Shown here piece after piece: positions 14,299-60,954 of a DNA stretch of 64,000 nucleotides. The translations under genes were made by a program, and so were the position numbers. The stretch is from a virus (taxonomy: Duplodnaviria; Caudoviricetes): positions 1 to 64,000 of IMG/VR virus record IMGVR_UViG_3300021958_000036; one strand, written 5' to 3'. Within the stretch, counting starts at the first letter, position 1; the number at the start of each line of letters is the position of its first letter. The notes under the pieces were generated by a model. It saw only the letters and a list, made by a program, of their open reading frames with translations, ran no database searches and was not told the origin of the DNA.

Positions 14299-14802
14299 TT
14301 ATTTTTTATATGGGTAATATTTTGATTTATCACCGCCGTAAGTGGTTTTAAAGAAATCACGCTTCTGCTTTAACTTCTTGCGTGTTGTAAATGAACCATC
14401 TGCTTCTCTTCCCAGTGGAACTGCAACACCACCAGCTGCTCCTGCACCACTAAACTCATCAATTTTATCTTCATCTTCTTCTTCGATATCTTCATCAACA
14501 AGTTTTTCCATTGTTTCCAATATCTTAAACATCCCGTCTTTAAAAACACGTAATTCACAAATCTTTGCATTTGCTTCATACGGATCTTCTTCGTTTAATT
14601 CTTCGAATTGATATCCTGATTCTTCAAAATAATCAACAGGAAAACCAGCAGACATTTTAGAATTATAAGTAGAAGCAGCTGAGTCTCTTGGTGAACCATT
14701 ATACCCGTGCTGTATTGATTTTCTTTGCTTTACATAAGCTGAATCATAGGGTGAGTCACCTACACCCAGTCTTATTTCTCTTATTAAATCTTTAAACTTC
14801 AT
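14299..14802 (-). CDS. Hypothetical acidic protein with LIRE leader (possible head-internal protein)
   Basis: 167 aa; starts MKFKDLIRE; ATATTTA motif just upstream. Confidence 0.55.
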   Translation of the reverse strand: MKFKDLIREIRLGVGDSPYDSAYVKQRKSIQHGYNGSPRDSAASTYNSKMSAGFPVDYFEESGYQFEELNEEDPYEANAKICELRVFKDGMFKILETMEKLVDEDIEEEDEDKIDEFSGAGAAGGVAVPLGREADGSFTTRKKLKQKRDFFKTTYGGDKSKYYPYKK

Positions 14803-14821
14803 AACGATATTAAATATCGTT

Positions 14822-15859
14822 CTAAATCTCTTTTATCTCAACGGGAATCTGTATTCCTTCTATCCCAAGTTTTGCTATTTTCTTTATTTCTTCTACATGT
14901 TCTTTTTCACAAGAAAACAAGAGCGCATCATGAATAACAGCATGGCCCTTGATTTGTTTGTTATCATTTAAAAAATTAAGAAAAGAAAGACAACAAAAAT
15001 CAACAGCAGAAGACTGAATATAATAATTGACAACATTTGAATCGCTAAAAATCGGCCTTCCAAAGTAATTCTCAATAAAACCCTTTTCTTGGAATTCAGA
15101 ATTCAATTTTTCTGTTAACTCATTAAAAGATAAGTAATCTTTCAAAGCTTCAATCTCGCCGCTAGATAGGCCAGAAAGCTTTTTTATTGTTGAACTAGAA
15201 GCACCATATAGGCAAGATATCACAGCCTGCTTAAACTTGGTTCTGCTTATGTTAGGATTAATCTCCAAGACGTCTTTGACATGTTGATAAACGTCTTTTA
15301 CATCTTCATCAATTAATCCCATCGTCATTAAATAAAAGTAGGGTTCACATGACTTGAAATCTACCTCTAACAAAACATTGTCAAAGTTAGGCTTTAAAAA
15401 CTTCCTATCAGTTTTTTTCATTGTCAGATAGTTTATGCCTTCTTTTATTGATAAACGACCTGTGATGCTATCATGCTTGTATTTTGGAACATCTTGCCAC
15501 TCACCTTCAAAGAAAAGATTATCTAATCTTTTAAACAATTGTAATCTTTTCGGGAATGTCTCAAAGAAATATCTTGTGATAAATGAATTATTATTGTCTG
15601 ATAACTCACTCCTTAGATAGTCAAGATATGACTTTTTTTGTTTTCTTGTTAAAAAGTGTTCCCAATTAACTTCTTTTGCATTTAAAGGTTCTAAAACTTT
15701 TGAATAGTATGATGATAGACTTTTTATCGTGTCTTTTCTGCATATGCTTCTAATCTTATTTAGAGAGTTAATGTTTATTTTTATTTCTGCAGAATTATTG
15801 ACAATAATATTTCTTCCAACAAAGTTATACTCTGGAGTTATTTCATAATTTAGTTTCAA
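14822..15859 (-). CDS. Minimal family A DNA polymerase (polymerase domain only)
   Basis: 'TGRLS', motif A 'VDFKSCEP', motif B 'RTKFKQAVISCLYG', 'ENYFGR', 'NYYIQSSA', motif C 'IHDA'; 345 aa with no exonuclease domains. Confidence 0.75.
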   Translation of the reverse strand: MKLNYEITPEYNFVGRNIIVNNSAEIKININSLNKIRSICRKDTIKSLSSYYSKVLEPLNAKEVNWEHFLTRKQKKSYLDYLRSELSDNNNSFITRYFFETFPKRLQLFKRLDNLFFEGEWQDVPKYKHDSITGRLSIKEGINYLTMKKTDRKFLKPNFDNVLLEVDFKSCEPYFYLMTMGLIDEDVKDVYQHVKDVLEINPNISRTKFKQAVISCLYGASSSTIKKLSGLSSGEIEALKDYLSFNELTEKLNSEFQEKGFIENYFGRPIFSDSNVVNYYIQSSAVDFCCLSFLNFLNDNKQIKGHAVIHDALLFSCEKEHVEEIKKIAKLGIEGIQIPVEIKEI

Positions 15860-15885
15860 AGCAACACCTTTTTTATTTTAAAATA

Positions 15886-19604: not shown

Positions 19605-19606
19605 TT

Positions 19607-25682: not shown

Positions 25683-25720
25683 ATGCTTTCCTTTGTATAC
25701 AATCTAATTATAAGTATTAC

Positions 25721-30398: not shown

Positions 30399-30437
30399 CT
30401 AAATCTCCATTGAATATTCTTAAATTTAATTATACCT

Positions 30438-33605: not shown

Positions 33606-33665
33606 TAATCACTCCTTAAATTACTATCATAACTATCAACTTATAATCCAATTATCTTTTCTTTC

Positions 33666-36790: not shown

Positions 36791-37093
36791 TTAGTCATCA
36801 AGCGAAACATCAACATTTTTTTCGTTTAATTTAATTGCACTATGCATTTTCGTTGCTTTTGAATAACTTAAATTCTTAGCAGACTTACTGATAGGCTTTC
36901 CTATCTTTCCTTTTGACTTGCCATGCACAACTTTCCACTTATCGCCCTTTGTCTTATCTGCATAATCTTTGTTAGAAATCTTTTCTTTTTCCCTTTTCTT
37001 TTTCCATTGTTTTAAACTGTAACCCATTGGCACAACATACTCTGAAAGTATCTCTCTTATTAAAAGTCTTATCTGTCTTTCACTAGTTAACAT
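36791..37093 (-). CDS. Basic hypothetical protein with LIREILSE leader
   Basis: 100 aa, Lys-rich; GGAG SD; ATATTTA motif upstream. Confidence 0.6.
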   Translation of the reverse strand: MLTSERQIRLLIREILSEYVVPMGYSLKQWKKKREKEKISNKDYADKTKGDKWKVVHGKSKGKIGKPISKSAKNLSYSKATKMHSAIKLNEKNVDVSLDD

Positions 37094-37120: not shown

Positions 37121-37435
37121 ATGCAACATCTATACATTGTTCAAAGTGATATTACTGGTGCTATAAAAATCGGTAGAAGTAAAAACGTTGAAAAAAGACT
37201 TAAACAGCTTCAAACAGGAAGTCCATACAAGCTTAAGCTCATACTAGAATTGAAACATCAAGGTTACATTGAAAAGCATTTACACCATCTACTTAAAGAA
37301 AAGAAGTGCAACTGTAGAGGTGAATGGTTTGACTTTGTGGCCACTGGCTATCTGCCCGACGAAATTACTGAAATGCTTGATCTTGACCTCATCAATTCTT
37401 GGTGGGATCATTCTCTGGATGTTCGTCACTCGTGA
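37121..37435 (+). CDS. GIY-YIG nuclease (T5orf172/MUG113-like)
   Basis: 'LYIVQ...IKIGRS.NVEKRLKQLQTGSP', 'EK.LH', 'GEWF'. Confidence 0.8.
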   Translation: MQHLYIVQSDITGAIKIGRSKNVEKRLKQLQTGSPYKLKLILELKHQGYIEKHLHHLLKEKKCNCRGEWFDFVATGYLPDEITEMLDLDLINSWWDHSLDVRHS

Positions 37436-37866: not shown

Positions 37867-38271
37867 TTAATAATCAAATTCGCTAACTGTTAAAATCAAT
37901 TGATTTTTGTCAAATAAAGGAACAGTCTTGACACCATAACCTAGCTTTTTTAACTCGTCAGAAACTTTATAAGAATTATCATCTAGCGAAGATATCCGAA
38001 CATTAACAGTCATTGAACGCTCATCACCAACTTCAATCCTATCTAGTTTCACAGTCTTGTCATTTCTTCTTTCTACAACATTATAATAACGGTCAGGCTT
38101 TACACCTGTGCTATCATACACTGCTTTAAAGACTTCAACTGCAAAATCCTTTAAATCCTCGGGAGCACTTAACATATTCCACCCGCTAGATTCACGAATT
38201 ATCTTTCTGTTATCTGCCTTGAAAACCTCTTCATTAATAAGTTTTCTTAGCTGACGTCTTGTTAATCTCAT
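37867..38271 (-). CDS. Hypothetical protein with LRKLINEE leader
   Basis: Likely start MRLTRRQLRKLINEE at 38271, overlapping the upstream TGA. Confidence 0.6.
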   Translation of the reverse strand: MRLTRRQLRKLINEEVFKADNRKIIRESSGWNMLSAPEDLKDFAVEVFKAVYDSTGVKPDRYYNVVERRNDKTVKLDRIEVGDERSMTVNVRISSLDDNSYKVSDELKKLGYGVKTVPLFDKNQLILTVSEFDY

Positions 38272-38657
38272 CAGTCGTATCTTCCCATCATAATATCTGA
38301 ACAGCAATCAAGAATAGCTTGTTTTGTAACAGGACATTCACAACATTCAACTAAACATTTAATAGCTGCACAACAATCTTCACGTGAAACAGATCCCTTG
38401 TCTAACATGCTGTGATTTTGATGATCGTGTGCCATGTGCATATCAGTTTTTTCTTCAGGAAACCCGTCACATTCACAAGGATTTTGTCCACACGAAGGGC
38501 ATGGAGCACCATAATCATCACAAGTACATGGGCTTTGACCGCAAGAGGGACATGTTGCTAATGACTGCATTGGGATAATACTCATATTTCCCATTCCCAT
38601 CATATGCATTTCTTGCAAAATCATTTTCTTTATTTTATTTCTATTTAACTTAGACAT
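38271..38657 (-). CDS. Cys/His-rich metallothionein-like protein with KMILQE leader
   Basis: Repeated CPSCGQxPCxC twice, 'HMAHDH', 'CC..IKCLVECCEC...CC'. Confidence 0.6.
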   Translation of the reverse strand: MSKLNRNKIKKMILQEMHMMGMGNMSIIPMQSLATCPSCGQSPCTCDDYGAPCPSCGQNPCECDGFPEEKTDMHMAHDHQNHSMLDKGSVSREDCCAAIKCLVECCECPVTKQAILDCCSDIMMGRYD

Positions 38658-39130: not shown

Positions 39131-40060
39131 ATGAATTCTATGAAAGAAATACTAAAAGAGTGGAGAAAATTCACTAAATCAAATCTACTTACTGAAAGAA
39201 CTGCACCAAATCAATATTATCCAAGAGATTACCAAACTGCTGAGCAAAACATTGTTCAAAAGTTTAAAGACCATACGTGGATTTTCTTTGATACAGAAAC
39301 ATCAGGATTAGACGAAAAAGAACCACATGTTCAAATAACTCAACTAGCTGCAATCGGATATAATACAAACGCTTTTGAAACAAAACCCGAAGAAGTTGAA
39401 GGTGCAAGATTTAATATGAAAATTGAATTACAACCTGCAACACTTGAAAGAAAAGAACAAGAAGACTCAGGCGAAATTCCTTCTGATAATTACTCAATTT
39501 CAAACTTACTAGAAATGACTCGCTACTACGACGAACCATTTCAACCTCAAAGTCCAGCTGCAGTTGCACAAGCTTTCACAGACTTTATCATGAATGTAAG
39601 AGCACAAAGTCCATCAGGTAGCATCGTCTTAATTGCACACAATGCAGATTTTGATGTAAAAATGTTAAATGAACTATATCGTAGAGCTGGAATCACTCCC
39701 CCTGACGCAACCGCAATAGATTCTCTTGCATTCACAGATATCTATTTTAAGCCCGTTTTAGAATATATCATGAGCAACCAATTAGCTGATGAAGAAGACC
39801 AAAGATTAGCTGATGCAATAACTCTAATGAATAGAAAAGGAAAACCTTACTACGCCAGCAAACTAGGAAATCTTGTCACAGGTTTTGAAATAGAAAACAA
39901 AGGATGGCATGAAGCCACTGCAGACATAGCCATGACAATGGATGTTCTTCACAGTGTAATTGACTATATGCGCAGAAAAGGTGTAAACTATCCCGATGCT
40001 CAACCCGGACCTATGACCTATAAGTTCAGAAGAGGTGGTGCTGGTCCATTTCAAATGTAA
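39131..40060 (+). CDS. DEDDh 3'-5' exonuclease (DnaQ-like) with N-terminal ILKEW/LLTE leader
   Basis: ExoI 'FFDTETSG', ExoII 'AHNADFD', ExoIII 'HEATAD'. Confidence 0.8.
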   Translation: MNSMKEILKEWRKFTKSNLLTERTAPNQYYPRDYQTAEQNIVQKFKDHTWIFFDTETSGLDEKEPHVQITQLAAIGYNTNAFETKPEEVEGARFNMKIELQPATLERKEQEDSGEIPSDNYSISNLLEMTRYYDEPFQPQSPAAVAQAFTDFIMNVRAQSPSGSIVLIAHNADFDVKMLNELYRRAGITPPDATAIDSLAFTDIYFKPVLEYIMSNQLADEEDQRLADAITLMNRKGKPYYASKLGNLVTGFEIENKGWHEATADIAMTMDVLHSVIDYMRRKGVNYPDAQPGPMTYKFRRGGAGPFQM

Positions 40061-40087: not shown

Positions 40088-40432
40088 ATGAAGCCTATCA
40101 TCATCAAAGACAGCAAGCTACCCCAAGCTCTGTCTTTTTTTATTGATATCTACGCCATAACTCTTTACCCTTTTATTATCATAAAAGACAAAGGAAATGA
40201 AACAACCATAAACCATGAAAAGATACACATAGCGCAACAAAAAGAGTTATTTGTAATAGGTTTCTATGTTTTATATGTTTACTATTGGCTTAAAGGTAAA
40301 GTTAAAGGATTGTCAAATGACGCAGCTTATATGAATATTCCTTTTGAACGAGAAGCTTACACAAAACAATATGATTTAAAATATCTTGAGAATAGAAAAA
40401 AGCATGCTTGGAAAAACTATTTAAAATCATAA
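40088..40432 (+). CDS. Small HExxH protein (zincin-like)
   Basis: 'AITLYPFI', 'INHEKIHIAQ', 'IPFEREAY'; GGAGG SD. Confidence 0.6.
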   Translation: MKPIIIKDSKLPQALSFFIDIYAITLYPFIIIKDKGNETTINHEKIHIAQQKELFVIGFYVLYVYYWLKGKVKGLSNDAAYMNIPFEREAYTKQYDLKYLENRKKHAWKNYLKS

Positions 40433-41924: not shown

Positions 41925-43829
41925 TTAGATTACATCCATATCCAAGCAAGTTACAGTACCGTAGAAGTCAGCACGTACCATTTTCTTACCGTAGCGGGTC
42001 ATTACGCCCTTACGAGGAGTGAAATCCTCTGGTGCGAAGATGGTAGGAGTAACAATGAGAGGTACGTAAGGAGCGTAAACGTAACCAGTTTCAAGGTAAG
42101 AACCACCTTTGTAACCAACAAGGATCTTGTTGCGTGGGAAGTATGGATCTTTGTAAACTGTGAAACGGTTGCTCAATGAACCAATAGCTTCAGCGCCGAG
42201 TGAGAACGGAGCACCAACTTGTCCGTCACCATCGATTTTGATAGCTGGCTTGTAAAGAACAGAAGCTTCGAAGATGGTAGCAACTTCAGGTGAAACAACG
42301 ATGAAGTTAGCAGAACCACGAAGAGTCTTACGATGGATCTCGTTAGCAACATCGATGATGGTTTCAACGAGAGTTTCGTACCATTCACGAACTGTACCGG
42401 TGAATTGTGGACCAGTAGCAAGAGCTGAAGCAAGATTTACAGAAGCACCAGTTGCCTTGTTAACAAATTTACCTGGTGAACGTGACCAGTAGTAGTTAGC
42501 GCCACGAGCTTCGGTGAGAAGGTCATTAAGAATCTCACGATCGATCTCAAGTGCAATTTGCTCAGAGAGAATTTGAGTAAGCTCAACTTCTGCATCAAGT
42601 GAGTGGTATGCATTAAGATCTTGCGCAAGTTCTGGAGACCAACGTGCACGTAACTTGCGTGTTGCTGCGGTAACTGCAATTGACTCAATCTTGATGTCAA
42701 CTTCTGGAATAACTGGCTCTGGAGTAGAACCAAAGTTAGACTCAAATGAAGGAATAACAAGGGTTGAACCGCTTGAATCTGATGCATCCAAAGAATCACC
42801 AATTGCAAAAGAACCAGTGAAGTCTGCACTAAAAGTAGACTCGTCAACAGCTGCTGAAGCAAGAGTACCAGTAACAACAAGCATAAGATGACGGCTAGCT
42901 GAAGCTACGAACGGATTAGGTGTAAAGATTGAACCGTCCCACTCACCAATTTGGTTAAGACGACGAACGTTCATGATGCCTGCACCTTGTTGGGTGTCTG
43001 CAGCAACAGCAACAAGACCTTGAGCACTACCAGCTGTGTTTGTTACACTTCTGTGATGAAGCGCATAAGACTTAATATTTGTGAAGTCCATATCAGGAAG
43101 ATCAGCATCTTGAGCTCTAACAATCAAGAAGTTGTAAGCATGTGTTCCAGCTTCGATTTGACGTGAAAGTTGAACATCAAACTGAAGAAGTTTACCATCA
43201 GATCCTGTGTGGACTGCGGTTTTTGATCCATCTGCAGAAAGTGTTGTAGTACCGCTATAAGCGCCAGAAGCAACTAGCAAAGGAAGTGGTCTGTCTGAAT
43301 GTACTTTAGAATAAGTAGCACCAGCAAGGTCGTATTGACCTCCAACAGCTGAAGCACCTTCACGAATGCTTCTACCACTTGGAGAACCGTAGATTGATTC
43401 ACCAGCGTTGTAGGTAGCAGCAGCTTGAGAAGTTCCAGCACTTTCGTTGCGGTCATTTGTACCACCAACGTCAGTTCCGTATGAGTAATCAAGATAGAAA
43501 AGAAGCCCAGAAGGAAGGCTCATTGGCTGAATAGAAACGAGTTCGTTAGCAACCAAACCACCGAAAACACGACGAACGATTGGGAATGCGATGTTAGAAA
43601 AACCGTTAACATCACCTGCTGCACCGTTGTTTCCCATGGTGTTAGCCTCGCGAAGAACTTGAGCAGCTTGGTTTTCAAGAAGGCGAGACATTGTCTCTCT
43701 CTTGTGTTCATTAAGACCTCTAAGAAGACCGGTACGAGACCATTTAGAGATCAATCTTTCACCTTCAGCACCGACGTTACGATCGCGGATACCTTCGGTC
43801 AATTGATTAAGTGTAAAACTTTTTGACAT
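41925..43829 (-). CDS. Major capsid protein (T4 gp23-like) with central insertion
   Basis: 'LVSIQPMSLPSGLLFYL', 'TRKLRARWSPELAQDLNAYHSLDAEVEL', 'EIDREIL', 'YAPYVPL', 'GVMTRYG'. Confidence 0.95.
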   Translation of the reverse strand: MSKSFTLNQLTEGIRDRNVGAEGERLISKWSRTGLLRGLNEHKRETMSRLLENQAAQVLREANTMGNNGAAGDVNGFSNIAFPIVRRVFGGLVANELVSIQPMSLPSGLLFYLDYSYGTDVGGTNDRNESAGTSQAAATYNAGESIYGSPSGRSIREGASAVGGQYDLAGATYSKVHSDRPLPLLVASGAYSGTTTLSADGSKTAVHTGSDGKLLQFDVQLSRQIEAGTHAYNFLIVRAQDADLPDMDFTNIKSYALHHRSVTNTAGSAQGLVAVAADTQQGAGIMNVRRLNQIGEWDGSIFTPNPFVASASRHLMLVVTGTLASAAVDESTFSADFTGSFAIGDSLDASDSSGSTLVIPSFESNFGSTPEPVIPEVDIKIESIAVTAATRKLRARWSPELAQDLNAYHSLDAEVELTQILSEQIALEIDREILNDLLTEARGANYYWSRSPGKFVNKATGASVNLASALATGPQFTGTVREWYETLVETIIDVANEIHRKTLRGSANFIVVSPEVATIFEASVLYKPAIKIDGDGQVGAPFSLGAEAIGSLSNRFTVYKDPYFPRNKILVGYKGGSYLETGYVYAPYVPLIVTPTIFAPEDFTPRKGVMTRYGKKMVRADFYGTVTCLDMDVI

Positions 43830-45313: not shown

Positions 45314-45363
45314 AACTTTCCTCATGTTTACTTTCTATATTTATCACTTAAAAAATAAAAAAT

Positions 45364-46426: not shown

Positions 46427-46666
46427 TTATTCTCCCTTCTTATTGAGAGCTTTTCTTATTTTTCTTTTAATAGCTTCAATTTTTTTAGCTTCATTAAGCT
46501 TTTTTTCTTGAATAGCTTTTACCTTTAAAATAATAGCTCTTTTTTGAGAAGCAGATATAATCTTTTTCTCTTCTTTGATAAGTCCAGCTTTTTTAAGCTT
46601 TTGTTTTTCTTCAGCAATAATTCTTTTTAAGGTTATTGCTGTTAATTTTGAGACGCTTTTTCGCAT
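46427..46666 (-). CDS. Small basic protein with LKRIIAEE leader
   Basis: 79 aa; GGAG SD; ATATTTA motif upstream. Confidence 0.6.
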   Translation of the reverse strand: MRKSVSKLTAITLKRIIAEEKQKLKKAGLIKEEKKIISASQKRAIILKVKAIQEKKLNEAKKIEAIKRKIRKALNKKGE

Positions 46667-46758: not shown

Positions 46759-47259
46759 TTATGAAAAAGCAAGCGTTGCCCACTTACCAGCGTTCTCGTC
46801 ACCAAATAAATCTTCAGGATTGTTTTGACTAACAATCATTGCTGCCTGATCAGCACCCTTGGAAGTCGAAACCATTCCTCGACCTCTTTCAGCTGAAGCT
46901 TGTTCTTGTAAGGTGCTCATTGCTGTATCAGCTAGCAATTCGTTTAAAATTGGATCACCAGTAATATTTGTACTAACGTTTGGTGTCTTTTGTTCTTGCT
47001 GTACTTGAGCTTCTTCATTGTTAGCAAAACTAATGCTATCTAAATAACTTGGTCTTCGACCTTCAGAAGTTTTGCTTGATTGTCTTCCAGAATCTAAAGA
47101 GGCTAAGCTTTTTTTAGATCTTCTATTGGGATTTGAAGCTGCAGTTCTATTAATACTTTCTTTTAATGTCGAAGGTGAAGAACTTAAACCTTCTGATAAA
47201 ATTTCAACTAAACATTCTTTAACAATGTTTTTTAATTCTGACCTACTTAAGCGACTCAT
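46759..47259 (-). CDS. Hypothetical protein with LKNIVKE..EILSE leader
   Basis: 166 aa, coupled to the prohead protease gene. Confidence 0.6.
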   Translation of the reverse strand: MSRLSRSELKNIVKECLVEILSEGLSSSPSTLKESINRTAASNPNRRSKKSLASLDSGRQSSKTSEGRRPSYLDSISFANNEEAQVQQEQKTPNVSTNITGDPILNELLADTAMSTLQEQASAERGRGMVSTSKGADQAAMIVSQNNPEDLFGDENAGKWATLAFS

Positions 47260-47864
47260 TAATCATCCCAGTTTAAAATATCATTAAATATTCTATCAAC
47301 TCTATCTGATTTGTTAAAAGTCTTGTTAAGATCTCTTTTAGAAATCGTCTTACCTTCACGAAGCATAAAAGCACCAGGTGTAGAAGGTTCAGAAACCATA
47401 TCAAAGCAAATAAGCTGAAAATCTTCTTGAACTATTTGAGAATCGCCTTGGCTTCTTGTAGAACCTACGCCACGTGACGATATACCCAGTGTAACACCAC
47501 TTTCAATCAAACTCTGTATAATTTTGCCGCTAGGTGTGTCAAGTATCTCTATAGTACCATAGACGTTGTCTCCATCCATGTGTGCTTCAGTTACAACGTG
47601 AGAAACATTTTTAAGTTCAACAACTGAAGAGTCGGGATGATCACATTCTCCAAGAGCTCTTTTTTCTTGAATGAGTTTTTGGTAGTTTACCATTTCTCTT
47701 TCTAAGATAGCTCTAGGGTAGATTCTTCCGTTTTGATTTAAAGTGTTAGCTCTTTGAATAATACCTTTAAGAACGATTTTCCCATACTTATCTCTTGACT
47801 CTTTGATAAGCTTTTTATCAACATTAATTGGACACCATTCGGTTAATAATTTCATATCGCTCAT
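47259..47864 (-). CDS. Prohead protease (T4 gp21-like)
   Basis: 'NQNGRIYP', 'ALGECDHP', 'VSH', 'TPSGKI', 'LGISSRGVGS', 'FDMVSEPSTPGAF'. Confidence 0.92.
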   Translation of the reverse strand: MSDMKLLTEWCPINVDKKLIKESRDKYGKIVLKGIIQRANTLNQNGRIYPRAILEREMVNYQKLIQEKRALGECDHPDSSVVELKNVSHVVTEAHMDGDNVYGTIEILDTPSGKIIQSLIESGVTLGISSRGVGSTRSQGDSQIVQEDFQLICFDMVSEPSTPGAFMLREGKTISKRDLNKTFNKSDRVDRIFNDILNWDD

Positions 47865-47865: not shown

Positions 47866-48720
47866 TTATTCCTCGCTGTTTATCTCACTAACAAGGTTTG
47901 TGAGAGTTAAAAATTTAACAATAGAAGAATCAGATACATCGGTGGTATTTAAGTTTTTTATTCTAGATGAAACTTCATCAATCTTTCCATTGACAATTTT
48001 ATTTGTATTTGTATTTCTAAAAGCTTCTAATGATTTTAAAGTTTGTGATTTTTTGTTCTCTAAATACTCAACCAACTTTTCTTTATTTGACTCATTATAA
48101 AAAGCGTAATTTTTGATAATTTCTTTTTGATCTTGAGACATGTGAGAATATTTCTCATTAAGTTTTTTAGTCATTAGATTAAAGACTAACTTATCTGACT
48201 GCGATTGTTCAACAACGTTTTGAACATCTTCAATTCTTTCTTCACTCTTCTCAGTCACCAACCAATCAATTGCTTTTTTCTCAAACTCAACAATTTTTTT
48301 CAAATTAGAGTCATCCTCTTTGCGCCATTCATTAAGAAGATTTTGAATATTTGCGTATTCTGAGTAATTTGAAACATTTCTATAATAAAAGTTCTTGTTA
48401 TTAATTTTATAATTAATATCTTTTATCAATGCAGATTTTTCTCTATCAAGATTAACAGAGTCTGATCTTCTTGCCGCATTTTTAGCTTCAGTTAAAATTG
48501 CAGCTGCAGCAGTTGTAGAAGAAATATTCGAAGTTGCGAGTGCGTTAAAAAGTCTAAACTCCCTATAGAGTTCTGTTCCCTTAGCAAACCTCTTTTCCAT
48601 GATAGTTGTTGCAACTTTTGCTAAATCTTTATCATTCTCAATGATACAATTAGCTATATGTTTAACAAATAGCTCATAAATAATTCCAACATTTCTTTTT
48701 TTATTATGCTTATTACTCAT
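47866..48720 (-). CDS. Hypothetical head-module protein
   Basis: 'KHNKKRNVGIIYEL'; lies between portal and protease. Confidence 0.6.
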   Translation of the reverse strand: MSNKHNKKRNVGIIYELFVKHIANCIIENDKDLAKVATTIMEKRFAKGTELYREFRLFNALATSNISSTTAAAAILTEAKNAARRSDSVNLDREKSALIKDINYKINNKNFYYRNVSNYSEYANIQNLLNEWRKEDDSNLKKIVEFEKKAIDWLVTEKSEERIEDVQNVVEQSQSDKLVFNLMTKKLNEKYSHMSQDQKEIIKNYAFYNESNKEKLVEYLENKKSQTLKSLEAFRNTNTNKIVNGKIDEVSSRIKNLNTTDVSDSSIVKFLTLTNLVSEINSEE

Positions 48721-50719
48721 TATCACCTTCCCCTGATGAATTGTTCTCAGAGATTACAGATCTAGGTTTTCCTAGTTTTGAATCAAGTCTATTTAAAGTC
48801 GATTTAATCTTTGCTGTCATCTGCGCATTTTGCTCTATTTTAATATCTAAGTATTCACTAATGTCTAAACTATCTAAAGATGATACTTCATTAGCACTAG
48901 GAATATCCATCTTGTAAGATGCTTTTAAATCCATCTCATTTCTTGGTAATCCTGTTATATCATTTTGCGAACGATTATCTTGATATCTGTCAGCAGACAT
49001 CAAACCATCTAAACCTTTCTTAGCGCGATTACCACCAAATGATTTTTTGTACTCTTTTCTTTTGGTTTGTTTCTGTGCTTGGTTTTGCCACTTTTCAAAT
49101 TCAGTAAGTTGTTCTTCATCATCTTCTTCGTTTTCTTCGTTTAAAAGGGCTGAACTACTATCAATTAACTTTTGAACTTTTATCGGAGCATCATCGTCAT
49201 CAATTGATAACATGCTTTTTTCAGCCAAGCCACCCATGTCAGGAGCCCCACCGCCTAAATCAAGACCAGGCATCGGTGCGGGCATACCTCCACCTGCTTC
49301 AGGACCTTCTGTTGGTGTAATTGTAGTAGATTCAATTTCTAGGTCACCTTTCTTATCAGATATCAAGCCCTTCTTAACTGCAGCAATCTCTTCATCATTA
49401 AGTCTAAGAATGTGCTTTTGAACCCATGTTCTATTGACCAACCCAGGAACTTGAAGAGCGGTACCAGCCGCTTCAAATCTAGATTTAAATAATTCTAGCT
49501 TCTGTTGTTGTGCAATAGTTGAAGGATTAGATAATCGCAGTGTAAAGTCTAAAAGATCTTCATCCGTAAAACCTTGGCAATATAAATGAACAATAGCGAT
49601 TTTATTCATCTCAGAAAGTACTGTTCTCTGAATTCTAGCAATAGTCCTACTAAATCGAATATCTTCTTGAGAAAGTGTTGCTTTTGCACCTAATCCTTCA
49701 TCATAACCCAAATAAGCTTTTGGTATTTTAAGCGCTGCAAAAAGTTTCTTTTGAATATATTCAACGTCAGTAGTTTCTCCTGTGATAGTTTGACCAGCAA
49801 TTGGTTCAATTTTTGTTCCGCTATCACCGCCACGGACAGGAATAAAGTAATCTTCATCAATTGATAATGGATTATATCTTAAATCAACTCTACCGCTATT
49901 TTTATCAACAATGGGAGACTTTTTCAAAGCTGATTGGGCTTGTTCCATATAGTTTGCAATATCCTCTGGTGGGACATTTCCAACATCAATATAGAAAGCT
50001 TTTCTATCTGGGGCTCTTACGATTCTGTGAACAAGCATTGCATCTTCTAAAAGAATTAGCTGTCTCCAGATTCTTCTTGCAGGTTCTAAAACAGAAGAAC
50101 CGTATGGCAAGAATGCATCATTACCCAAAAGTCTCAGATGAGATATTTGCCAGTTTTCTAAAACTTGATTTCCTTGTGTAACCCATCTAAATCTGACAGC
50201 CATAGGATCATTTTTATCGAAACCCTCTTCTCTTTCAATTTCTGAAATCGGCAAAGGATATGCGTTAATTACGCCGTAACTAGGATGAACATCATTAAAA
50301 AGAAAGAAGTCTCCATACTTTACAAGGTTTCTTACCCATGCTGTCATGTTAAATTCAATGTTCAGCGTGTCATAAAACAATTCATTTAGAATTTCTCTAA
50401 TCTTAGAGTTTTCTGAATATATGTGTAGTGTTTTACCGTTTTCATCAGCAGCAACAGATTCTTCTGCATATATGTCAAGAGCGCTAGCAATCTCAGGTGT
50501 GTATTCCATTTCGCTGAAATCAGAATACCTTGCCATTCTATCATAAGTACCATAAGCAGACATTGCTGCTGAGTATACTTGAGATTGATTCTTTCTAAAC
50601 GCTTCAAAAGCTGAAGAGGTTACTCTATCTTGTGCTTGCAAGACGTTTCTTTTTACGACGGGACCAGACCTAAAAAGTCTAGTCAGTCTTGTAAATAAAT
50701 TTCCTTTAGGATCAGCCAT
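48713..50719 (-). CDS. Portal protein (T4 gp20-like)
   Basis: 'PEIASALDIYAEE', 'LEDAMLVHRIVRAPDRKAFYIDVGN', 'EDYFIPVR', 'ALKIPKAYL'. Confidence 0.92.
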   Translation of the reverse strand: MADPKGNLFTRLTRLFRSGPVVKRNVLQAQDRVTSSAFEAFRKNQSQVYSAAMSAYGTYDRMARYSDFSEMEYTPEIASALDIYAEESVAADENGKTLHIYSENSKIREILNELFYDTLNIEFNMTAWVRNLVKYGDFFLFNDVHPSYGVINAYPLPISEIEREEGFDKNDPMAVRFRWVTQGNQVLENWQISHLRLLGNDAFLPYGSSVLEPARRIWRQLILLEDAMLVHRIVRAPDRKAFYIDVGNVPPEDIANYMEQAQSALKKSPIVDKNSGRVDLRYNPLSIDEDYFIPVRGGDSGTKIEPIAGQTITGETTDVEYIQKKLFAALKIPKAYLGYDEGLGAKATLSQEDIRFSRTIARIQRTVLSEMNKIAIVHLYCQGFTDEDLLDFTLRLSNPSTIAQQQKLELFKSRFEAAGTALQVPGLVNRTWVQKHILRLNDEEIAAVKKGLISDKKGDLEIESTTITPTEGPEAGGGMPAPMPGLDLGGGAPDMGGLAEKSMLSIDDDDAPIKVQKLIDSSSALLNEENEEDDEEQLTEFEKWQNQAQKQTKRKEYKKSFGGNRAKKGLDGLMSADRYQDNRSQNDITGLPRNEMDLKASYKMDIPSANEVSSLDSLDISEYLDIKIEQNAQMTAKIKSTLNRLDSKLGKPRSVISENNSSGEGDNE

Positions 50720-50728: not shown

Positions 50729-52351
50729 CTATTTTAAAATCCAATACATATCTTTAGGAATATTACTTCTTTTTAATGCATCTTTTACGTTTGTTTTTAC
50801 GTTTGTCTTATTGTTTCTTCTATCAGTAAATATAGGTAAAACATTCATTTGAGACAAAACAGCATCAGGAGTGTCTTGATAATCAGCTGATTTTCTTGAC
50901 ATGGCACCTAACATTGCGTCATTTAAAGCCTTTGAGTTCTTACTATAATCAGAACTAGCATCAAACAGCCATGAACCGATTGCCAAACTCATAACAAGAT
51001 CATCATTGAAGCCTCTTTTAGCTTGTGCTTTTCCACTTTGCCATGTAAAAACCTTAAGCTCTTCATAAAACCTTGATGAATATGATACCAACTGTTTATT
51101 CCTTAATACTTCTTCAAGTTTAGCTAATATCTTTGAACGTGATTTAGCGCTAGTTGTAAAACCAGCATTTTCAGGTGTTGAAGGAGCAATATATCCTCCC
51201 ACCAAAGCTGTGCCAGAATTCTTTCTATAATACATTCTAGGATATTTCAAATCTTTTAATTTTACAATTGTTGCATAACCATATGAATTGTTTTCTGGGC
51301 ATACAAGTGCCTTGTTATACTTCAAGCCAAACTCATTAATTGTTGCACCAAAGTCATCAGGACGTATCTTTCCTTTAAATTCTGCAACTACTTCACTTTC
51401 ATCAATGTCAATTATATGAAATGTTGAATAGTCTTTAGAATCACCTCTGGCAACGTCTGCGGATAAAATATATGAATGCTCTGAAAGAGGATACTTCCAG
51501 ATCCAGACATTATTATCCGGACCTTCTCTAGCTATCGGGTCTTTAACACTTGTCCTAAGCCAGTCGATTGATTTGTTATCCAAGAAAGTTTCACCTGAAG
51601 TAGTGAAATCACAAAGGTATTCTTGTGCAATTTGTCTAGGCGAAAGATTATTTGTGATTTGTTTAAACCACTCTTCATCTCTTTCAGGATGAACATCCCA
51701 TGGTAATCTAATAGCATTGAACTCATTAAGATTTGCTTCAGCTTCTGTGTAAAGTTTGTAGTATTGTCCTCCAGCACCGTTTGGTGTAGACAAAATAATA
51801 ACTCGACCACCTGTAGAAATTGTAGGATAGATACCAGTCCAAATAGTGTCAAAGTTTCTTACAAAAGCTGCCTCATCAACAATTAATAACGAAAGAGCTT
51901 CTGAACGACCAGCATCTTCAGATGTAGGAATTGCTTTTATTTGAGACCCGTGATTAAAAACAATCTCCTGTTTGTTATTTGAAACAATCTCAGGAAGCAT
52001 TAGCCACTTTGGTAGTGATCTAATCATTGTCTTGACTTTTGTAATAAAGTTTTGTGCTACTTTTAGTTTAGTAGCAATGATTAGAACATTCTTCTCTCTT
52101 TGAAATATTGCCATCCAAACTGAATAAGCAGCAACAAGTGTAGACAAACCTAACTGTCTAGACTTAAGAACAATATTAAATCTGTGATCAATAAAGTCCT
52201 GAACACAGTCATCCTGAAACGGAAAAGTCTCAAAGGGAATCAAACCTTTTACAGGATGCTGAATTTTAAGATAATTCTTAAAAAAATAATCAGGCTCTTT
52301 ACCACACCTGATTATTTCTCTAACTTGTGCTTGCTTGGTTTTGGTAGCCAA
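50729..52351 (-). CDS. Terminase large subunit (T4 gp17-like)
   Basis: 'KSRQLGLST', 'IVDEAAF', 'LSTPNG', 'ADVARG..DYS', 'NDDLVMS'. Confidence 0.93.
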   Translation of the reverse strand: MATKTKQAQVREIIRCGKEPDYFFKNYLKIQHPVKGLIPFETFPFQDDCVQDFIDHRFNIVLKSRQLGLSTLVAAYSVWMAIFQREKNVLIIATKLKVAQNFITKVKTMIRSLPKWLMLPEIVSNNKQEIVFNHGSQIKAIPTSEDAGRSEALSLLIVDEAAFVRNFDTIWTGIYPTISTGGRVIILSTPNGAGGQYYKLYTEAEANLNEFNAIRLPWDVHPERDEEWFKQITNNLSPRQIAQEYLCDFTTSGETFLDNKSIDWLRTSVKDPIAREGPDNNVWIWKYPLSEHSYILSADVARGDSKDYSTFHIIDIDESEVVAEFKGKIRPDDFGATINEFGLKYNKALVCPENNSYGYATIVKLKDLKYPRMYYRKNSGTALVGGYIAPSTPENAGFTTSAKSRSKILAKLEEVLRNKQLVSYSSRFYEELKVFTWQSGKAQAKRGFNDDLVMSLAIGSWLFDASSDYSKNSKALNDAMLGAMSRKSADYQDTPDAVLSQMNVLPIFTDRRNNKTNVKTNVKDALKRSNIPKDMYWILK

Positions 52352-56122: not shown

Positions 56123-57385
56123 TTATCGGGTCATTTTTACAAGACAATCTCTTTCATCAGGTGTGAAATGAAGATTATATCCTGGTAATATTACCCAACA
56201 TCTTTTAGAAATACAATTTTTAGGCTTGGGTGCACAACCATCTGTCATAACAATATAACCATCATATTCAGCAGCTACCTTTCTATAATGGGTTTCAACA
56301 GCATTAAAGCATGTGCCTCCAGAACGTGTTCTCTTTAAACCATCTAGGCTTTTATTCTTTTTCCAGACAAACTTTGATTGCTCATCAACGCCATAATCAA
56401 AGTTATAAATAGTAAATGTTACATCACGAGATAATTCAGACAATGCTGAAAAGAATAATCCTAAGTCATCATCACCAACAGAACCTGATTGGTCAATATA
56501 AACAGCAATGTTTGATGTGTGATTTGTTTTTGTACCGGGGTGAATATATGGATACTTCCTGTTAATACGCCTGAATGTTCGAGACTTCTTTGCTTTTTGC
56601 TTGCTTCCACAAAAGTATTGTAATGTTCTACGCCAGTCAACAACAGTCTCACCACCTTGAATGATTTCTTTTCTCAATTCAGCTGGAACAGAACCCCAGT
56701 TGTTGCTTCTTTGTGCTTTTTCAGATGCTTGTTTTATAACTTTTTTAACATTTGCATCTAAAAGCTCTCTATCAGACTCAGAAAGACCAGAACCGTCACC
56801 CTCAATGTGTACATCAACACCCATGTCACCGTCTTCAAACATGCTTTTGGCAGCTTCTTCAATATCTGGGTCTTCTGTTAGTTTGTTCATATACCACTCA
56901 GAAGCTTTGTCACGAGGAAAAGACGAAATTAAATCAACAAGTTTGTTAGCTTTTTCATTTGTATCTTTGTCATCCAAGTTTGGTGATTTCATTTTTTTGC
57001 CTGGAATTAGACCACCTTCGGGTAGTTCGCTTTCAGGAATAATAGAATTAATTGCAAGGTCTGTTGCAATATTCCAGAGAACATGCGGGTCTTGCTTTCT
57101 TGAAGTAACATGTTTGAATATTAGATGATAACACTCATGTTTCATCAATCCAAAGAAATGTCTCCTAGAAAGTGAAGATACAAAGTCTGGATTCCACATT
57201 AACGTTATTGTTCCATCAATGACTGCAACACCAGCTGTTGGAATACTGTGTGTCTTATACTTTCTCATGGCACGAATAATATCACTAAAGAAAGGCTCAT
57301 CCTGTAAGAACAGGACAAGCAACTTACCTAGCTTTTTCTCGTTAATATCAAATATTTCAGGTTCTTCTTTTAATTCAAAAGTCAT
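56123..57385 (-). CDS. Metallopeptidase-like plus VWA protein (DUF2201-type), MoxR partner
   Basis: HExxH 'HECYH', 'WNIATDLAIN', MIDAS 'DQSGS', 'GGT', 'MTDG'. Confidence 0.8.
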   Translation of the reverse strand: MTFELKEEPEIFDINEKKLGKLLVLFLQDEPFFSDIIRAMRKYKTHSIPTAGVAVIDGTITLMWNPDFVSSLSRRHFFGLMKHECYHLIFKHVTSRKQDPHVLWNIATDLAINSIIPESELPEGGLIPGKKMKSPNLDDKDTNEKANKLVDLISSFPRDKASEWYMNKLTEDPDIEEAAKSMFEDGDMGVDVHIEGDGSGLSESDRELLDANVKKVIKQASEKAQRSNNWGSVPAELRKEIIQGGETVVDWRRTLQYFCGSKQKAKKSRTFRRINRKYPYIHPGTKTNHTSNIAVYIDQSGSVGDDDLGLFFSALSELSRDVTFTIYNFDYGVDEQSKFVWKKNKSLDGLKRTRSGGTCFNAVETHYRKVAAEYDGYIVMTDGCAPKPKNCISKRCWVILPGYNLHFTPDERDCLVKMTR

Positions 57386-57430: not shown

Positions 57431-57439
57431 GTAAGGCAA

Positions 57440-58567: not shown

Positions 58568-58573
58568 GCCACA

Positions 58574-59014
58574 CTAAGCTTTTGAAATATTGATTTTTGA
58601 GACCCATATTCTTCCTTCTTGTCCCATAACCAAAACATTGTCATTCCATCTAGTAACATCTCTTAAGCTCTTCTTCTTTGTCACTTTTATCTTCTCTGAA
58701 ATCTTTGAAGATTTTTGTGCAACTGAAATAATCATGCCAATCTTACTAATCTTTTTTGACTGTTGATAGTCATAGACTTCGTAATGAACCAAATCACCCT
58801 CAGAAAAGTTCCAAGAAATATTTAAATCTTGCTTCTTTTCATGCATAGTACTTCTAATTTCATGACGTTGCTTATTAGTAAAACCACCCTTCTTTTTTTG
58901 AGGCTTGGGCTTCGGTTCTTGACCAGCAGCAATTGCTGCTTCAATCTCCTCTTGCTCTTTCTCTTGCATTTGACGCTTAATGTCTCTTAATTGCTTGCCA
59001 GAAAGCTTGGCCAT
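58574..59014 (-). CDS. Hypothetical basic protein (C-terminal SH3/KOW-like)
   Basis: 146 aa; GGAG SD; 'FSEGDLVHY'. Confidence 0.55.
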   Translation of the reverse strand: MAKLSGKQLRDIKRQMQEKEQEEIEAAIAAGQEPKPKPQKKKGGFTNKQRHEIRSTMHEKKQDLNISWNFSEGDLVHYEVYDYQQSKKISKIGMIISVAQKSSKISEKIKVTKKKSLRDVTRWNDNVLVMGQEGRIWVSKINISKA

Positions 59015-59046
59015 TTATTATCTCCTTGTATTTGAATTACACTTTT

Positions 59047-59075
59047 ATTATAATATTAATTATAACATTTTGCAT
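59047..59075 (-). promoter_or_regulatory. Sigma70-like promoter
   Basis: ATGCAA-N17-TATAAT. Confidence 0.7.
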
Positions 59076-59095
59076 GCAGCAAATACAAGTTTATA

Positions 59096-60400
59096 TTAAA
59101 TGCCAAACAACCCAAACATATCTCTGCTTGACATAAAGCTTACTAACTTATCAATATAATCGTCACCAATTAAACTATTAACACGCTTTAAGTCAAAGTC
59201 TAAATCAGCACACAACATAACCCTTCCTGACCTTCCATTTCCGTCTGAAAAAGGGTGAACCCACTCATAACAAACATGCTTAAGCCACGGGTCCTGAAGT
59301 TGAAAGACCTTAGCCAGACAGTGATTAAAGTCTTTTGTGTCTGGATACTTAATACCGGTTGGCGAACTATGAGAAAAGCCACGAACACAGCCTGGGGTAT
59401 CTCTCTCAATAACAATCGGGTCAAACTGGTCGTGAATCTTTATTATTTTAAATTTATCATCAATATTTCCAATTCTATGAGCCATTGTCAAGCATTTGAA
59501 TTGAGAAAGCAAATGAGGGTTATCAGTAATTTGCTCGGGTGGAAATCCAAGAATAAAATTTAAAGCAGCATCATAACAAACGTCATAGTCAATATGATAT
59601 CTTTCAATCTGATTTGTTCGATGTAAAAAATAAGCTAGCTCATGTGCATATTCTTTCATAAACTGAGATTCGTTCATGTCCGGATATGATTCTTTAGCTA
59701 ATTGATAAAATTTATCACTTAATTTTTTATAGTGTTTTGTTGATAAGTTCATGTTTGAGACTGATTCGAAACTATCACTATTAATATATAGGTCAGATAG
59801 CATTTCTCCAATCATTCTGCCATATGAAACATCACTAGGAAAATGAACACAATTCTCAATCCTAGACTGACCAATTAACTCGGCAAATGTCCTTAAATCT
59901 CCTGTGTAATTCTCGAAGTCATTAGCAATTACCTCCGCAATAAAATAAGCAATTGCAGTGTGTCCGCTCGGAAACGAAGGTGACTTACAACTTTTTACAT
60001 TTTTATAGTCATCATCATCGTTAATTAGAAAAGTCTTTGGCCTGGGTCTGTTATATTTGTACTTGAGATTTAACACAATAGTATCAACATCTTCTAATAG
60101 CTTTCCTAAAAATTTCCAATCAACGAATATTGCATTCTCTTTACAAAAAGTCTTAAATAAATCTTCCACACTTTCATCTGACTCTTTTAAAAAAGAAGCA
60201 GGAAGGCATGGGTTTCTATGATGATGCTTTATATTCTCTATGTCTTCTTGGAATTCTTTACTTCCAGGCTTAGGAAAAGACATGTCAGGAAGCATGCTTC
60301 CATTTTTAATGTATTTGCAGCTTCTAGCCATTCTTTTTTTGTATTTTTCATGAACGACGCTGTCTTTGGATTCTTTAAAAAGACGCTGCAGTGAAATCAT
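59096..60400 (-). CDS. PAP2 phosphatase-Fic domain fusion protein
   Basis: PAP2 motifs 'KYKYNRPRP', 'SFPSGH', 'SRIENCVHFPSD'; Fic motif 'HPFSDGNGRSGR'. Confidence 0.8.
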   Translation of the reverse strand: MISLQRLFKESKDSVVHEKYKKRMARSCKYIKNGSMLPDMSFPKPGSKEFQEDIENIKHHHRNPCLPASFLKESDESVEDLFKTFCKENAIFVDWKFLGKLLEDVDTIVLNLKYKYNRPRPKTFLINDDDDYKNVKSCKSPSFPSGHTAIAYFIAEVIANDFENYTGDLRTFAELIGQSRIENCVHFPSDVSYGRMIGEMLSDLYINSDSFESVSNMNLSTKHYKKLSDKFYQLAKESYPDMNESQFMKEYAHELAYFLHRTNQIERYHIDYDVCYDAALNFILGFPPEQITDNPHLLSQFKCLTMAHRIGNIDDKFKIIKIHDQFDPIVIERDTPGCVRGFSHSSPTGIKYPDTKDFNHCLAKVFQLQDPWLKHVCYEWVHPFSDGNGRSGRVMLCADLDFDLKRVNSLIGDDYIDKLVSFMSSRDMFGLFGI

Positions 60401-60402
60401 TA

Positions 60403-60954
60403 TTAAATCTCACCTTTGTACATTTTGTATGACAAGCTGTGATAAACCTCAGATATATCGTCAGCAATTGAAGAAAGGTGACTTCTTTGCCAGTCATCAA
60501 GTTCATATCCATCAGGAATCATATCATGAAGTTTTTGAGCGTATTCTGCTATTTTAAAAAGCTGTGACTTTGCCATATAGTTGTTATTGTGATCATGATG
60601 ACCTTTTGTTGCATCAACATCATAACCATGACTAGTCAGTACACCTAATGTATCGCCTATCATTCCCATTGAATCAATAGAGTAATCAGAATCATCATCT
60701 GCAGCCATGCAACCGCATTCATATAGTAAAACCCCATGCTTGCTACAAGATTCTTCCATTGCAGCATAGCCACACTCCATGCATTGCCCTTCATACATTG
60801 CACCGCCACACTCATAACACATTGTGTGTTTTTTATGTCTATAAGCTGCTTCTGGATCTAGGTCACTAGGTTGAACTAGTTCTGCTTCATCCATCATTTT
60901 TTGCATTTCTTCTAAAATCATTCTTTTTAGCATTGATTTTGATAATTTTGACAT
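60403..60954 (-). CDS. Cys/His-rich hypothetical protein with LKRMILEE leader
   Basis: Start MSKLSK at 60954 with GAGG SD and ATATTTA motif at 60998-61004; CxxC pairs. Confidence 0.6.
   Translation of the reverse strand: MSKLSKSMLKRMILEEMQKMMDEAELVQPSDLDPEAAYRHKKHTMCYECGGAMYEGQCMECGYAAMEESCSKHGVLLYECGCMAADDDSDYSIDSMGMIGDTLGVLTSHGYDVDATKGHHDHNNNYMAKSQLFKIAEYAQKLHDMIPDGYELDDWQRSHLSSIADDISEVYHSLSYKMYKGEI

What the first reader, a model, noticed from the sequence alone, without database searches (positions are those of the whole stretch)
14299..60954. Shared N-terminal leader on ~10 unrelated proteins: candidate capsid-targeting and protease-maturation cargo system
Seen: otherwise unrelated ORFs start with a basic amphipathic helix ending in hydrophobic-hydrophobic-x-E. 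These are MKFKDLIRE (14802), MLTSERQIRLLIREILSE (37093), MRLTRRQLRKLINEE (38271), MSKLNRNKIKKMILQE (38657), MNSMKEILKEW..LLTE (39131, +), MRKSVSKLTAITLKRIIAEE (46666), MSRLSRSELKNIVKE..EILSE (47259), MISLQRLFKE (60400) and MSKLSKSMLKRMILEE (60954). The protease (MKLLTE), scaffold (KIFEE) and MCP (NQLTE) have related ends. Several sit behind the ATANTTA motif, and I did not see the leader on replication or tail proteins. Known: T4 gp21 cleaves after [I/L]-x-E, and T4 internal proteins carry a ~10-aa capsid-targeting sequence. Inference: a modular addressing tag loads diverse cargo (an exonuclease, a PAP2-Fic enzyme, metal-binding proteins) into the prohead for cleavage and injection.
Basis: partly seen in the sequence, partly recalled or inferred. 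Interest (0 to 1): 0.85.

Follow-up and report, generated by a model that had tools for sequence, protein, structure and literature searches.

The report
Shared head-loading leader on phage proteins
An uncultured marine giant T4-like phage starts five or six unrelated small proteins (and its relatives start dozens) with the same 12-residue helical tag that ends in the cutting motif of its head-maturation protease, most likely an enlarged version of phage T4's "load into the head, then clip" signal, though neither loading nor clipping has been observed.

Summary
The window is part of a 93-kb fragment (about a third) of an uncultured marine T4-type jumbo myophage with a gp21-type (Pfam S77) prohead protease, gp20-like portal and gp23-like capsid protein. 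A real, non-chance N-terminal leader, L-[ST]-[KR]-x-x-[LI]-[KR]-x-[ILM]-[IV]-x-E, sits 2-8 residues after the start codon of five ORFs (starts 38271, 38657, 46666, 47259, 60954), with a divergent sixth (37093). The other three claimed members (14802, 39131, 60400) lack this leader; they only have short N-terminal hydrophobic-x-Glu ends, which orthologues keep but which cannot be proven individually. In related contigs the same leader heads 7-33 ORFs per contig, falling into about 25 sequence-unrelated cargo groups; it is absent from T4 and three cultured distant relatives. Conservation is at peptide level, Glu is almost never replaced by Asp, two leader genes are fixed between protease and scaffold genes, and capsid, scaffold and protease carry conserved N-terminal h-x-E sites. 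Best reading (about 0.65): a T4 CTS-like capsid-targeting propeptide removed by the prohead protease. This is a new variant of a known kind; the scan has noted similar leader systems in other uncultured T4-like jumbo phages. No experiment supports packaging, cleavage or injection.

The parts
37867..38271 (-). 134-aa leader protein; leader = residues 1-14 (38230-38271), predicted cut after I-N-E
   Evidence: Leave-one-out rank 1; profile E 1.8e-7; four database homologues keep the leader unchanged and start at the same Met; AF2 model: leader helix 5-20, low-confidence linker 15-24, then globular alpha/beta domain with no PDB match
38271..38657 (-). 128-aa Cys/Met-rich leader protein; leader residues 1-16 (38610-38657), Glu shifted by one (L-Q-E)
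   Evidence: Rank 2; E 5.4e-7; orthologues with the leader in related contigs; repeated C-x-x-C and CC motifs seen in the translation
60403..60954 (-). 183-aa acidic leader protein with C-x-x-C pairs; leader residues 1-15 (60910-60954)
   Evidence: Rank 1; E 1.8e-6; orthologues begin at the same Met; ATATTTAAT 44 nt upstream
46427..46666 (-). 79-aa very basic (pI 10.6) leader protein in the head module; leader residues 1-19 (46610-46666)
   Evidence: Rank 2; E 1.7e-5; a small basic leader protein stands at this position in nearly all of 80 related loci; pI
46759..47259 (-). 166-aa leader protein directly after the protease gene; leader residues 1-15 (47215-47259) followed by a second site I-L-S-E at residue 23
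   Evidence: Rank 9; E 7.4e-6; 38 orthologues, residues 9-25 nearly invariant while most of the rest varies
36791..37093 (-). 100-aa basic protein with a divergent leader (two sites, I-R-E and L-S-E)
   Evidence: Rank 34 of 88,589; p 0.0016; not found by the profile search; a relative has a similar N-terminus on a LysM-lysozyme protein
47259..47864 (-). Prohead protease, T4 gp21 family; conserved N-terminal L-L-T-E at residue 9
   Evidence: Pfam Peptidase_S77 2.2e-27; phrog_207 7.5e-55; N-end conserved in relatives; T4 gp21 has L-I-E at residue 9 (PMC9026906)
43868..45325 (-). Scaffold-like acidic protein (true start probably 45313); N-terminal [LI]-[FY]-x-E before Ala
   Evidence: Position before the capsid gene; pI 4.5, net charge -50, 25 [LI]-x-E sites = 5.2 per 100 aa against 1.18 genome mean; N-end conserved; no family hit
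41925..43829 (-). Major capsid protein, gp23-like; N-terminal Q-L-T-E before G-I-R invariant in relatives
   Evidence: phrog_138 7.7e-76; tblastn to T4-like capsid genes; N-end alignment
47866..48726 (-). 286-aa protein between portal and protease; conserved N-terminal G-I-I-Y-E and a leader-like helix near the C-terminus
   Evidence: homologues at the same place in Flavobacterium phage immuto and Microcystis phage Mel-JY01
45922..46425 (-). 167-aa head-module protein with conserved N-terminal T-I-V-E
48713..50719 (-). Portal protein (context; no N-terminal h-x-E)
   Evidence: phrog_213 2.5e-68
39131..40060 (+). DEDDh exonuclease; uncertain member: N-end M-N-x-M-K-x-I-L-x-E-W resembles the protease N-end, not the long leader
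   Evidence: Pfam RNase_T 2.2e-8; half-motif p 0.003; one orthologue keeps the N-end
59096..60400 (-). PAP2-Fic fusion; uncertain member: conserved N-terminal S-L-x-x-L-F but Glu position drifts or is lost
   Evidence: Pfam PAP2 9.4e-14, Fic 2.4e-5; orthologues in 5 of 5 related contigs; N-termini; half-motif p 0.001
14299..14802 (-). 167-aa acidic protein; uncertain member: short N-end ending I-R-E; orthologues have M-K-K-L-K-E
   Evidence: Half-motif p 0.008; orthologues; ATATTTAAT 9 nt before the start codon

Best explanation
The leader is a capsid-targeting propeptide of the T4 CTS type. Shown: it is a 12-residue N-terminal module, L-[ST]-[KR]-x-x-[LI]-[KR]-x-[ILM]-[IV]-x-E, under peptide-level selection, portable between unrelated proteins, specific to one clade of T4-type jumbo phages that encode a gp21-family protease, and it ends in that protease family's known recognition motif. 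Inferred: it forms a basic amphipathic helix (hydrophobic positions 1, 6, 9, 10 on one face; basic 3, 7, 8 on the other) that binds the strongly acidic scaffold core while the prohead is built; after the shell closes, the protease cuts after the Glu, freeing the cargo inside the head; small basic cargo stays with the DNA and cargo is delivered to the next host with the genome. The three short-ended proteins (14802, 39131, 60400) may be cut or loaded in the same way, but that is not established.
For: Non-chance and N-terminal; in 1.2 Mb of related loci 162 of 206 matrix hits are N-terminal and nearly all others are one conserved internal terminase motif. Portable: 108 leader proteins fall into 30 BLAST clusters; profile hits per related contig 7, 13, 13, 19, 33, all on the coding strand, ORFs of 50-970 aa. 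Clade-specific: 0-1 weak hits in T4, Pelagibacter phage HTVC008M, Microcystis phage Mel-JY01, Flavobacterium phage immuto. Peptide-level: synonymous codons at conserved columns follow genome usage; K/R, L/I, I/V exchanges. Glu-specific: with only columns 1-10 as the pattern, 126 N-terminal matches have Glu at column 12 in 98, at 12 or 13 in 115, Asp at 12 in 2; in T4 Asp at this place blocks processing (PMC9026906). Head link: protease S77; two leader genes fixed between protease and scaffold genes in 76 of 80 loci; capsid, scaffold, protease and two more head-module proteins keep N-terminal h-x-E sites; scaffold is acidic and 4.4-fold enriched in [LI]-x-E. Structure: leader is a separate helix followed by a low-confidence linker at the predicted cut. 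Timing: leader genes 60954, 46666, 37093, 14802 share the upstream ATANTTA motif with sheath, tail and neck genes.
Against: No virion proteomics, no cleavage assay, no cultured member of the clade (best cultured protease match 51% identity). Relatives were fetched through the protease gene, so protease/leader co-occurrence is not independent. The leader has no sequence similarity to the T4 CTS beyond the h-h-x-E end. After the Glu the helix pattern often continues (Glu/Cys then a hydrophobic residue), so conservation does not stop sharply at the predicted cut. Some relatives' cargo has a hydrophobic segment after the leader, which would also fit membrane proteins. Tens of packaged species per phage is far more than in T4.
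Confidence: 0.65

Rival explanations
1. The leader is only the conserved N-terminal end of one fast-diverging paralogous family of head-core or internal proteins; it is inherited by duplication, not a portable tag, and need not be a targeting signal.
For: Leader genes stand in tandem arrays in relatives, some neighbours are clear paralogues (two 763/764-aa genes in L088); almost all cargo is without family hits, so remote common ancestry cannot be excluded.
Against: Cargo ranges from 50 to over 800 aa and includes a LysM-lysozyme enzyme, Cys-rich proteins, lysine-rich basic proteins and a globular alpha/beta domain; 30 BLAST-unrelated clusters; the leader is far better conserved than anything after it.
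Confidence: 0.12
3. The leader is a basic amphipathic helix that brings proteins to the cell membrane (or to the membrane-bound assembling prohead) without being cleaved or packaged.
For: Amphipathic, basic character; two relatives' cargo proteins have a hydrophobic stretch after the leader; one cargo is a peptidoglycan hydrolase.
Against: Most cargo has no hydrophobic segment; strict Glu at a fixed distance is unexplained; the same h-x-E end is on capsid, scaffold and protease.
Confidence: 0.07
4. Chance similarity of lysine-rich, AT-biased N-termini.
For: The loose h-h-x-E rule alone gives about six N-termini by chance.
Confidence: 0.02

Closest known systems
Phage T4 capsid targeting sequence (CTS) of internal proteins IPI, IPII, IPIII (and the short propeptides of Alt, gp24, gp67, gp68), removed by prohead protease gp21
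   Same: Extreme N-terminal tag on otherwise unrelated proteins; ends in hydrophobic-hydrophobic-x-Glu (T4: F-I-A-E); gp21-family protease encoded next to core, scaffold and capsid genes; some cargo small and basic; T-even internal proteins are likewise diverse with only the CTS conserved (PMC3012670).
   Different: No sequence similarity beyond the end motif (leader profile finds nothing in T4); 12-16 rather than 10 residues, strongly basic; 5-6 carriers in a third of this genome and up to about 30 per related contig against a handful in T4; function untested here.
Processed head and ejection proteins of giant phages phiKZ, 201phi2-1 and SPN3US
   Same: Jumbo phages with a diverged gp21-type protease that cuts many head proteins after Glu; propeptides inferred to target proteins into the prohead; paralogues gp53/gp54 of SPN3US share an identical 15-residue N-terminus (PMC5694885).
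   Different: Those propeptides are mostly over 100 residues, without one common leader, and the motif is S/A-x-E (PMC9026906); here one short common leader and a T4-type [ILV]-x-E motif.
Shared recognition leaders of RiPP-type or radical-SAM maturase systems
   Same: One conserved N-terminal sequence in front of many variable sequences.
   Different: No maturase found with the leader genes; cargo are full-size proteins; leader genes sit in the head module.

Membership tests
T4-type CTS / prohead-protease propeptide system | Phage encodes a gp21-family (Peptidase S77) prohead protease within a T4-like head gene cluster | tested here: met
   Pfam S77 2.2e-27, phrog_207, portal phrog_213, capsid phrog_138
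T4-type CTS / prohead-protease propeptide system | Same short sequence at the extreme N-terminus of otherwise unrelated proteins | tested here: met
   Five to six genes here; about 25-30 unrelated clusters in relatives
T4-type CTS / prohead-protease propeptide system | Leader ends in the protease motif L/I-x-E with Glu at P1 | tested here: met
   Column 10 is I or V, Glu at column 12 or 13 in 115 of 126; Asp 2 of 126. Val is as common as Ile at P3, a slight departure from T4's L/I
T4-type CTS / prohead-protease propeptide system | Sequence homology of the leader to the T4 CTS | tested here: not met
   Leader profile has no hit in T4; only the h-h-x-E end is shared. Works-like claim unaffected; not a homologue of the T4 tag
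T4-type CTS / prohead-protease propeptide system | Capsid, scaffold and protease themselves carry cleavage sites of the same type | tested here: met
   Conserved N-terminal sites; scaffold 5.2 [LI]-x-E per 100 aa against 1.18
T4-type CTS / prohead-protease propeptide system | Tagged proteins are incorporated into the prohead and the tag is cleaved off | not testable with these tools
   No cultured member; needs proteomics or reconstitution
T4-type CTS / prohead-protease propeptide system | Cargo is ejected into the host with the DNA | not testable with these tools
   Inference from T4 only
Radical-SAM/RiPP-type shared leader | A maturase gene co-occurs with the tagged genes | tested here: not met
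   PF04055 absent here and in 4 of 5 related contigs; contigs are incomplete

The most novel reading that the evidence does not exclude
A whole clade of abundant marine T4-type jumbo phages devotes up to a tenth of its genes to a fast-turning-over arsenal of leader-tagged proteins (ORFans, metal-binding proteins, a peptidoglycan hydrolase, perhaps nucleases and a PAP2-Fic enzyme) that are loaded into the head by one portable 12-residue tag and injected with the DNA: a protein-delivery system an order of magnitude larger than T4's, and a ready-made list of candidate host-takeover and anti-defence effectors.
Probability: 0.4. Interest if true: 0.7.

Novelty: new variant of a known kind. Interest (0 to 1): 0.5.

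Why it matters
If the tag works as in T4, it labels, from sequence alone, the proteins that an uncultured and widespread marine phage group carries inside its head and delivers to the host. That gives a shortlist of likely early-acting effectors among otherwise unannotatable ORFans, shows that the T4 'internal protein' strategy can be scaled up to dozens of cargo species in jumbo phages, and offers a second, sequence-distinct packaging tag for engineering protein delivery by phage capsids. It also gives a simple rule (clade-specific N-terminal leader plus h-x-Glu end) for annotating head-cargo genes in metagenomic phages.

Tried and rejected
Pattern-based searches of viral contigs for relatives of the PAP2-Fic, exonuclease and 14802 proteins found nothing useful; whole-record searches of five long related contigs worked instead. 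Pfam and PHROGs give no family for any long-leader protein of the window, and almost none for 49 leader proteins of the clade. The 166-aa head-module leader protein has no tblastn match in 50,697 phage records even at E 1. Foldseek against PDB found no fold match for the 134-aa cargo. RNA-level conservation (shared translational operator or recombination cassette) was rejected: codons at conserved columns vary as in the rest of the genome. The exact 9-mer ATATTTAAT is not significantly over-represented in the window as a whole (6 against 2.3 expected, 6 of 100 shuffles reach it), and the copy before 47259 lies inside the conserved C-terminal coding region of the protease; the looser ATANTTA is enriched in intergenic DNA, partly because that DNA is AT-rich. 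The protein at 58574-59014 looks leader-like at first sight but lacks the Glu and scores weakly (p 0.003); I left it out. Leader-scaffold docking could not be modelled because only single chains can be folded here.
Full report
WHAT THE DNA IS. The window is the first 64 kb of a single 93,168-base virus contig, estimated 34% complete, so the whole genome is probably about 270 kb. Nearly all genes are on the minus strand. The head module is T4-like: large terminase 50729-52351, portal 48713-50719 (phrog_213), a 286-aa protein, protease 47259-47864 (Pfam Peptidase_S77 2.2e-27; phrog_207 7.5e-55), four small genes, an acidic scaffold-like gene 43868-45325 and a gp23-like capsid gene 41925-43829 (phrog_138). 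The nearest cultured phages (Microcystis phage Mel-JY01, Flavobacterium phage immuto, Pelagibacter phage HTVC008M, T4-like cyanophages) are below 52% identity in protease and capsid protein, whereas 458 viral metagenome contigs encode close relatives of the protease. It is an uncultured, common marine clade of T4-type jumbo phages.

The other three (14802, 39131, 60400) do not match the full leader, only its second half, with p 0.008, 0.003 and 0.001 against internal windows; 3-4 such N-termini are seen among 69 genes where about 0.5 is expected. Orthologues help a little. The exonuclease orthologue keeps M-N-x-M-K-x-I-L-x-E-W, strikingly like the protease's own N-end K-L-L-T-E-W. The 14802 orthologues start M-K-K-L-K-E. 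The PAP2-Fic orthologues, present in 5 of 5 long related contigs, keep S-L-x-x-L-F, but the Glu moves or is lost. I treat these three as possible protease substrates, not as carriers of the leader.

EVIDENCE FROM RELATIVES. In 80 related loci (1.2 Mb) 162 of 206 matrix hits are N-terminal; almost all the rest are one conserved internal motif of the terminase. In 76 of 80 loci at least one leader gene is found, because two leader genes, the orthologues of 47259 and a small basic protein like 46666, are fixed just downstream of the protease gene. The 108 leader proteins collected fall into 30 BLAST-unrelated clusters. Searching five long related contigs whole with the leader profile gives 7, 13, 13, 19 and 33 matches (4, 10, 11, 16, 18 at E 1e-3 or better), all on the coding strand, on ORFs of about 50 to 970 aa, often in tandem arrays. 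The same profile gives 0-1 weak hits in T4, HTVC008M, Mel-JY01 and immuto, so it is not a composition artefact and is specific to this clade. Of 49 leader proteins only one has Pfam domains (LysM plus phage lysozyme). In the window the cargo is two lysine-rich basic proteins (46666, 37093), a Cys/Met-rich protein (38657), an acidic protein with C-x-x-C pairs (60954), a Ser/Gln-rich protein with conserved ends (47259) and a globular alpha/beta protein (38271).

WHAT KIND OF CONSTRAINT? At conserved leader columns all synonymous codons are used roughly as in the rest of the genome, and substitutions are conservative (K/R, L/I, I/V), so selection acts on the peptide, not on RNA or DNA. With only columns 1-10 as the search pattern, 126 N-terminal matches have Glu at column 12 in 98 and at 12 or 13 in 115, but Asp at 12 in only 2. 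That fits a Glu-specific protease: in T4, Asp at the corresponding CTS position blocks processing (PMC9026906). The AF2 model of the 134-aa protein (five sequences, mean pLDDT 75.8) shows the leader as a separate helix (residues 5-20), a low-confidence stretch at 15-24 around the predicted cut, and then a confident globular domain. On a helical wheel, positions 1, 6, 9, 10 form the hydrophobic face and 3, 7, 8 the basic face (read from alignment A1).

LINK TO HEAD MATURATION. T4 gp21 cuts after L/I-x-E; T4 internal proteins are loaded by a 10-residue N-terminal CTS that is then cut off; T4 gp21 itself has L-I-E at residue 9; T-even internal proteins are diverse apart from the CTS (PMC9026906, PMC3012670, PMC5694885). 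I read the T4 IPII and IPIII N-termini from NC_000866; both end F-I-A-E. Here the protease has L-L-T-E at residue 9, the capsid protein Q-L-T-E before an invariant G-I-R, the scaffold [LI]-[FY]-x-E before Ala, the 286-aa protein G-I-I-Y-E and the 167-aa protein T-I-V-E, all conserved across relatives, while the portal has none. The scaffold is very acidic (pI 4.5, net charge -50) and has 25 [LI]-x-E sites, 4.4 times the genome density, as expected of a gp22-like core that is digested. A basic leader binding an acidic core is plausible but is inference. The motif ATANTTA on the coding strand is 12-fold enriched in the 2.5% of the contig that is intergenic and precedes sheath, tail and neck genes as well as leader genes 60954, 46666, 37093 and 14802, which suggests late co-expression; this is weak evidence, because intergenic DNA is AT-rich.

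RIVALS. A diverging paralogue family is possible for some tandem neighbours, but does not fit the range of cargo. A ClpP degron cannot be excluded (ClpP is encoded at 6579-7181), but it explains neither the head-module synteny nor the Glu rule. Membrane targeting fits a few cargo proteins with hydrophobic segments only.

COMPARISON AND NOVELTY. Functionally this looks like the T4 CTS system. It passes every membership feature that can be tested in silico except sequence homology of the tag itself, and the two decisive features (incorporation and cleavage) cannot be tested here. It differs from T4 in tag sequence and length and above all in scale, and from phiKZ-like phages in having one short common leader and a T4-type motif. 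Flavobacterium phage immuto seems to use a different N-terminal tag ending F-L-x-E, which hints that each lineage has its own tag. Earlier notes of this scan describe similar expanded leader systems in other uncultured T4-like jumbo phages, two of them with this same motif; these are unchecked AI notes and I did not count them as evidence. I found no paper describing this leader.

Noticed in passing
window 47866-48726 (C-terminal end, about 47866-47930): The 286-aa protein between portal and protease has a conserved leader-like helix F-L-T-L-x-x-L-x-x-E-[IL] within about 10 residues of its C-terminus in all relatives; possibly a C-terminal propeptide or a docking helix. Homologues stand at the same place in phages immuto and Mel-JY01.
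   Followed up: partly
L082 (Flavobacterium phage immuto) 2730-4030, 9759-10567: Two adjacent genes upstream of the terminase start with the same N-terminus ending F-L-[TV]-E-N-K-L, and the protease, capsid and neighbouring genes have L-L-T-E, F-L-K-E and L-F-E ends: this cultured phage may have its own, different tag and could serve as an experimental model.
   Followed up: no
L094:4664-5884 (related contig G004): A 407-aa LysM plus phage-lysozyme protein carries the leader; its basic N-terminal region resembles the window's 100-aa protein at 36791-37093. It could be a head-packaged peptidoglycan hydrolase.
   Followed up: partly
window 39131-40060 and 47259-47864: The DEDDh exonuclease, one of the few plus-strand genes, and the prohead protease begin with nearly the same eight to ten residues (M-x-x-M-K-x-[IL]-L-x-E-W).
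   Followed up: partly
window 40427-41833 and 37121-37435: A 468-aa HNH-type homing endonuclease (phrog_3339, phrog_559) lies directly after the capsid gene, and a small plus-strand T5orf172/MUG113 (GIY-YIG-like) gene lies beside the leader genes: mobile nucleases inside the structural region.
   Followed up: no
whole contig, for example 33630-33636, 30427-30433, 25711-25717: ATANTTA on the coding strand is 12-fold enriched in intergenic DNA (13 of 43 hits against 1.1 expected) and precedes sheath, tail, neck and several leader genes; a candidate late promoter element distinct from T4's TATAAATA.
   Followed up: partly
window 38271-38657: The 128-aa leader protein is packed with C-P-S-C-G-Q-x-P-C repeats and CC pairs plus Met/His runs, which suggests metal (possibly copper) binding.
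   Followed up: no
window 6579-7181 and 56123-57385: The phage encodes ClpP (Pfam 4.2e-24) and a DUF2201 metallopeptidase/VWA-like protein next to a MoxR-like ATPase gene.
   Followed up: no
window 43868-45325 and 47866-48726: Orthologue N-termini suggest that the true starts are 45313 (scaffold) and 48720 (286-aa protein), not the longest-ORF starts.
   Followed up: partly
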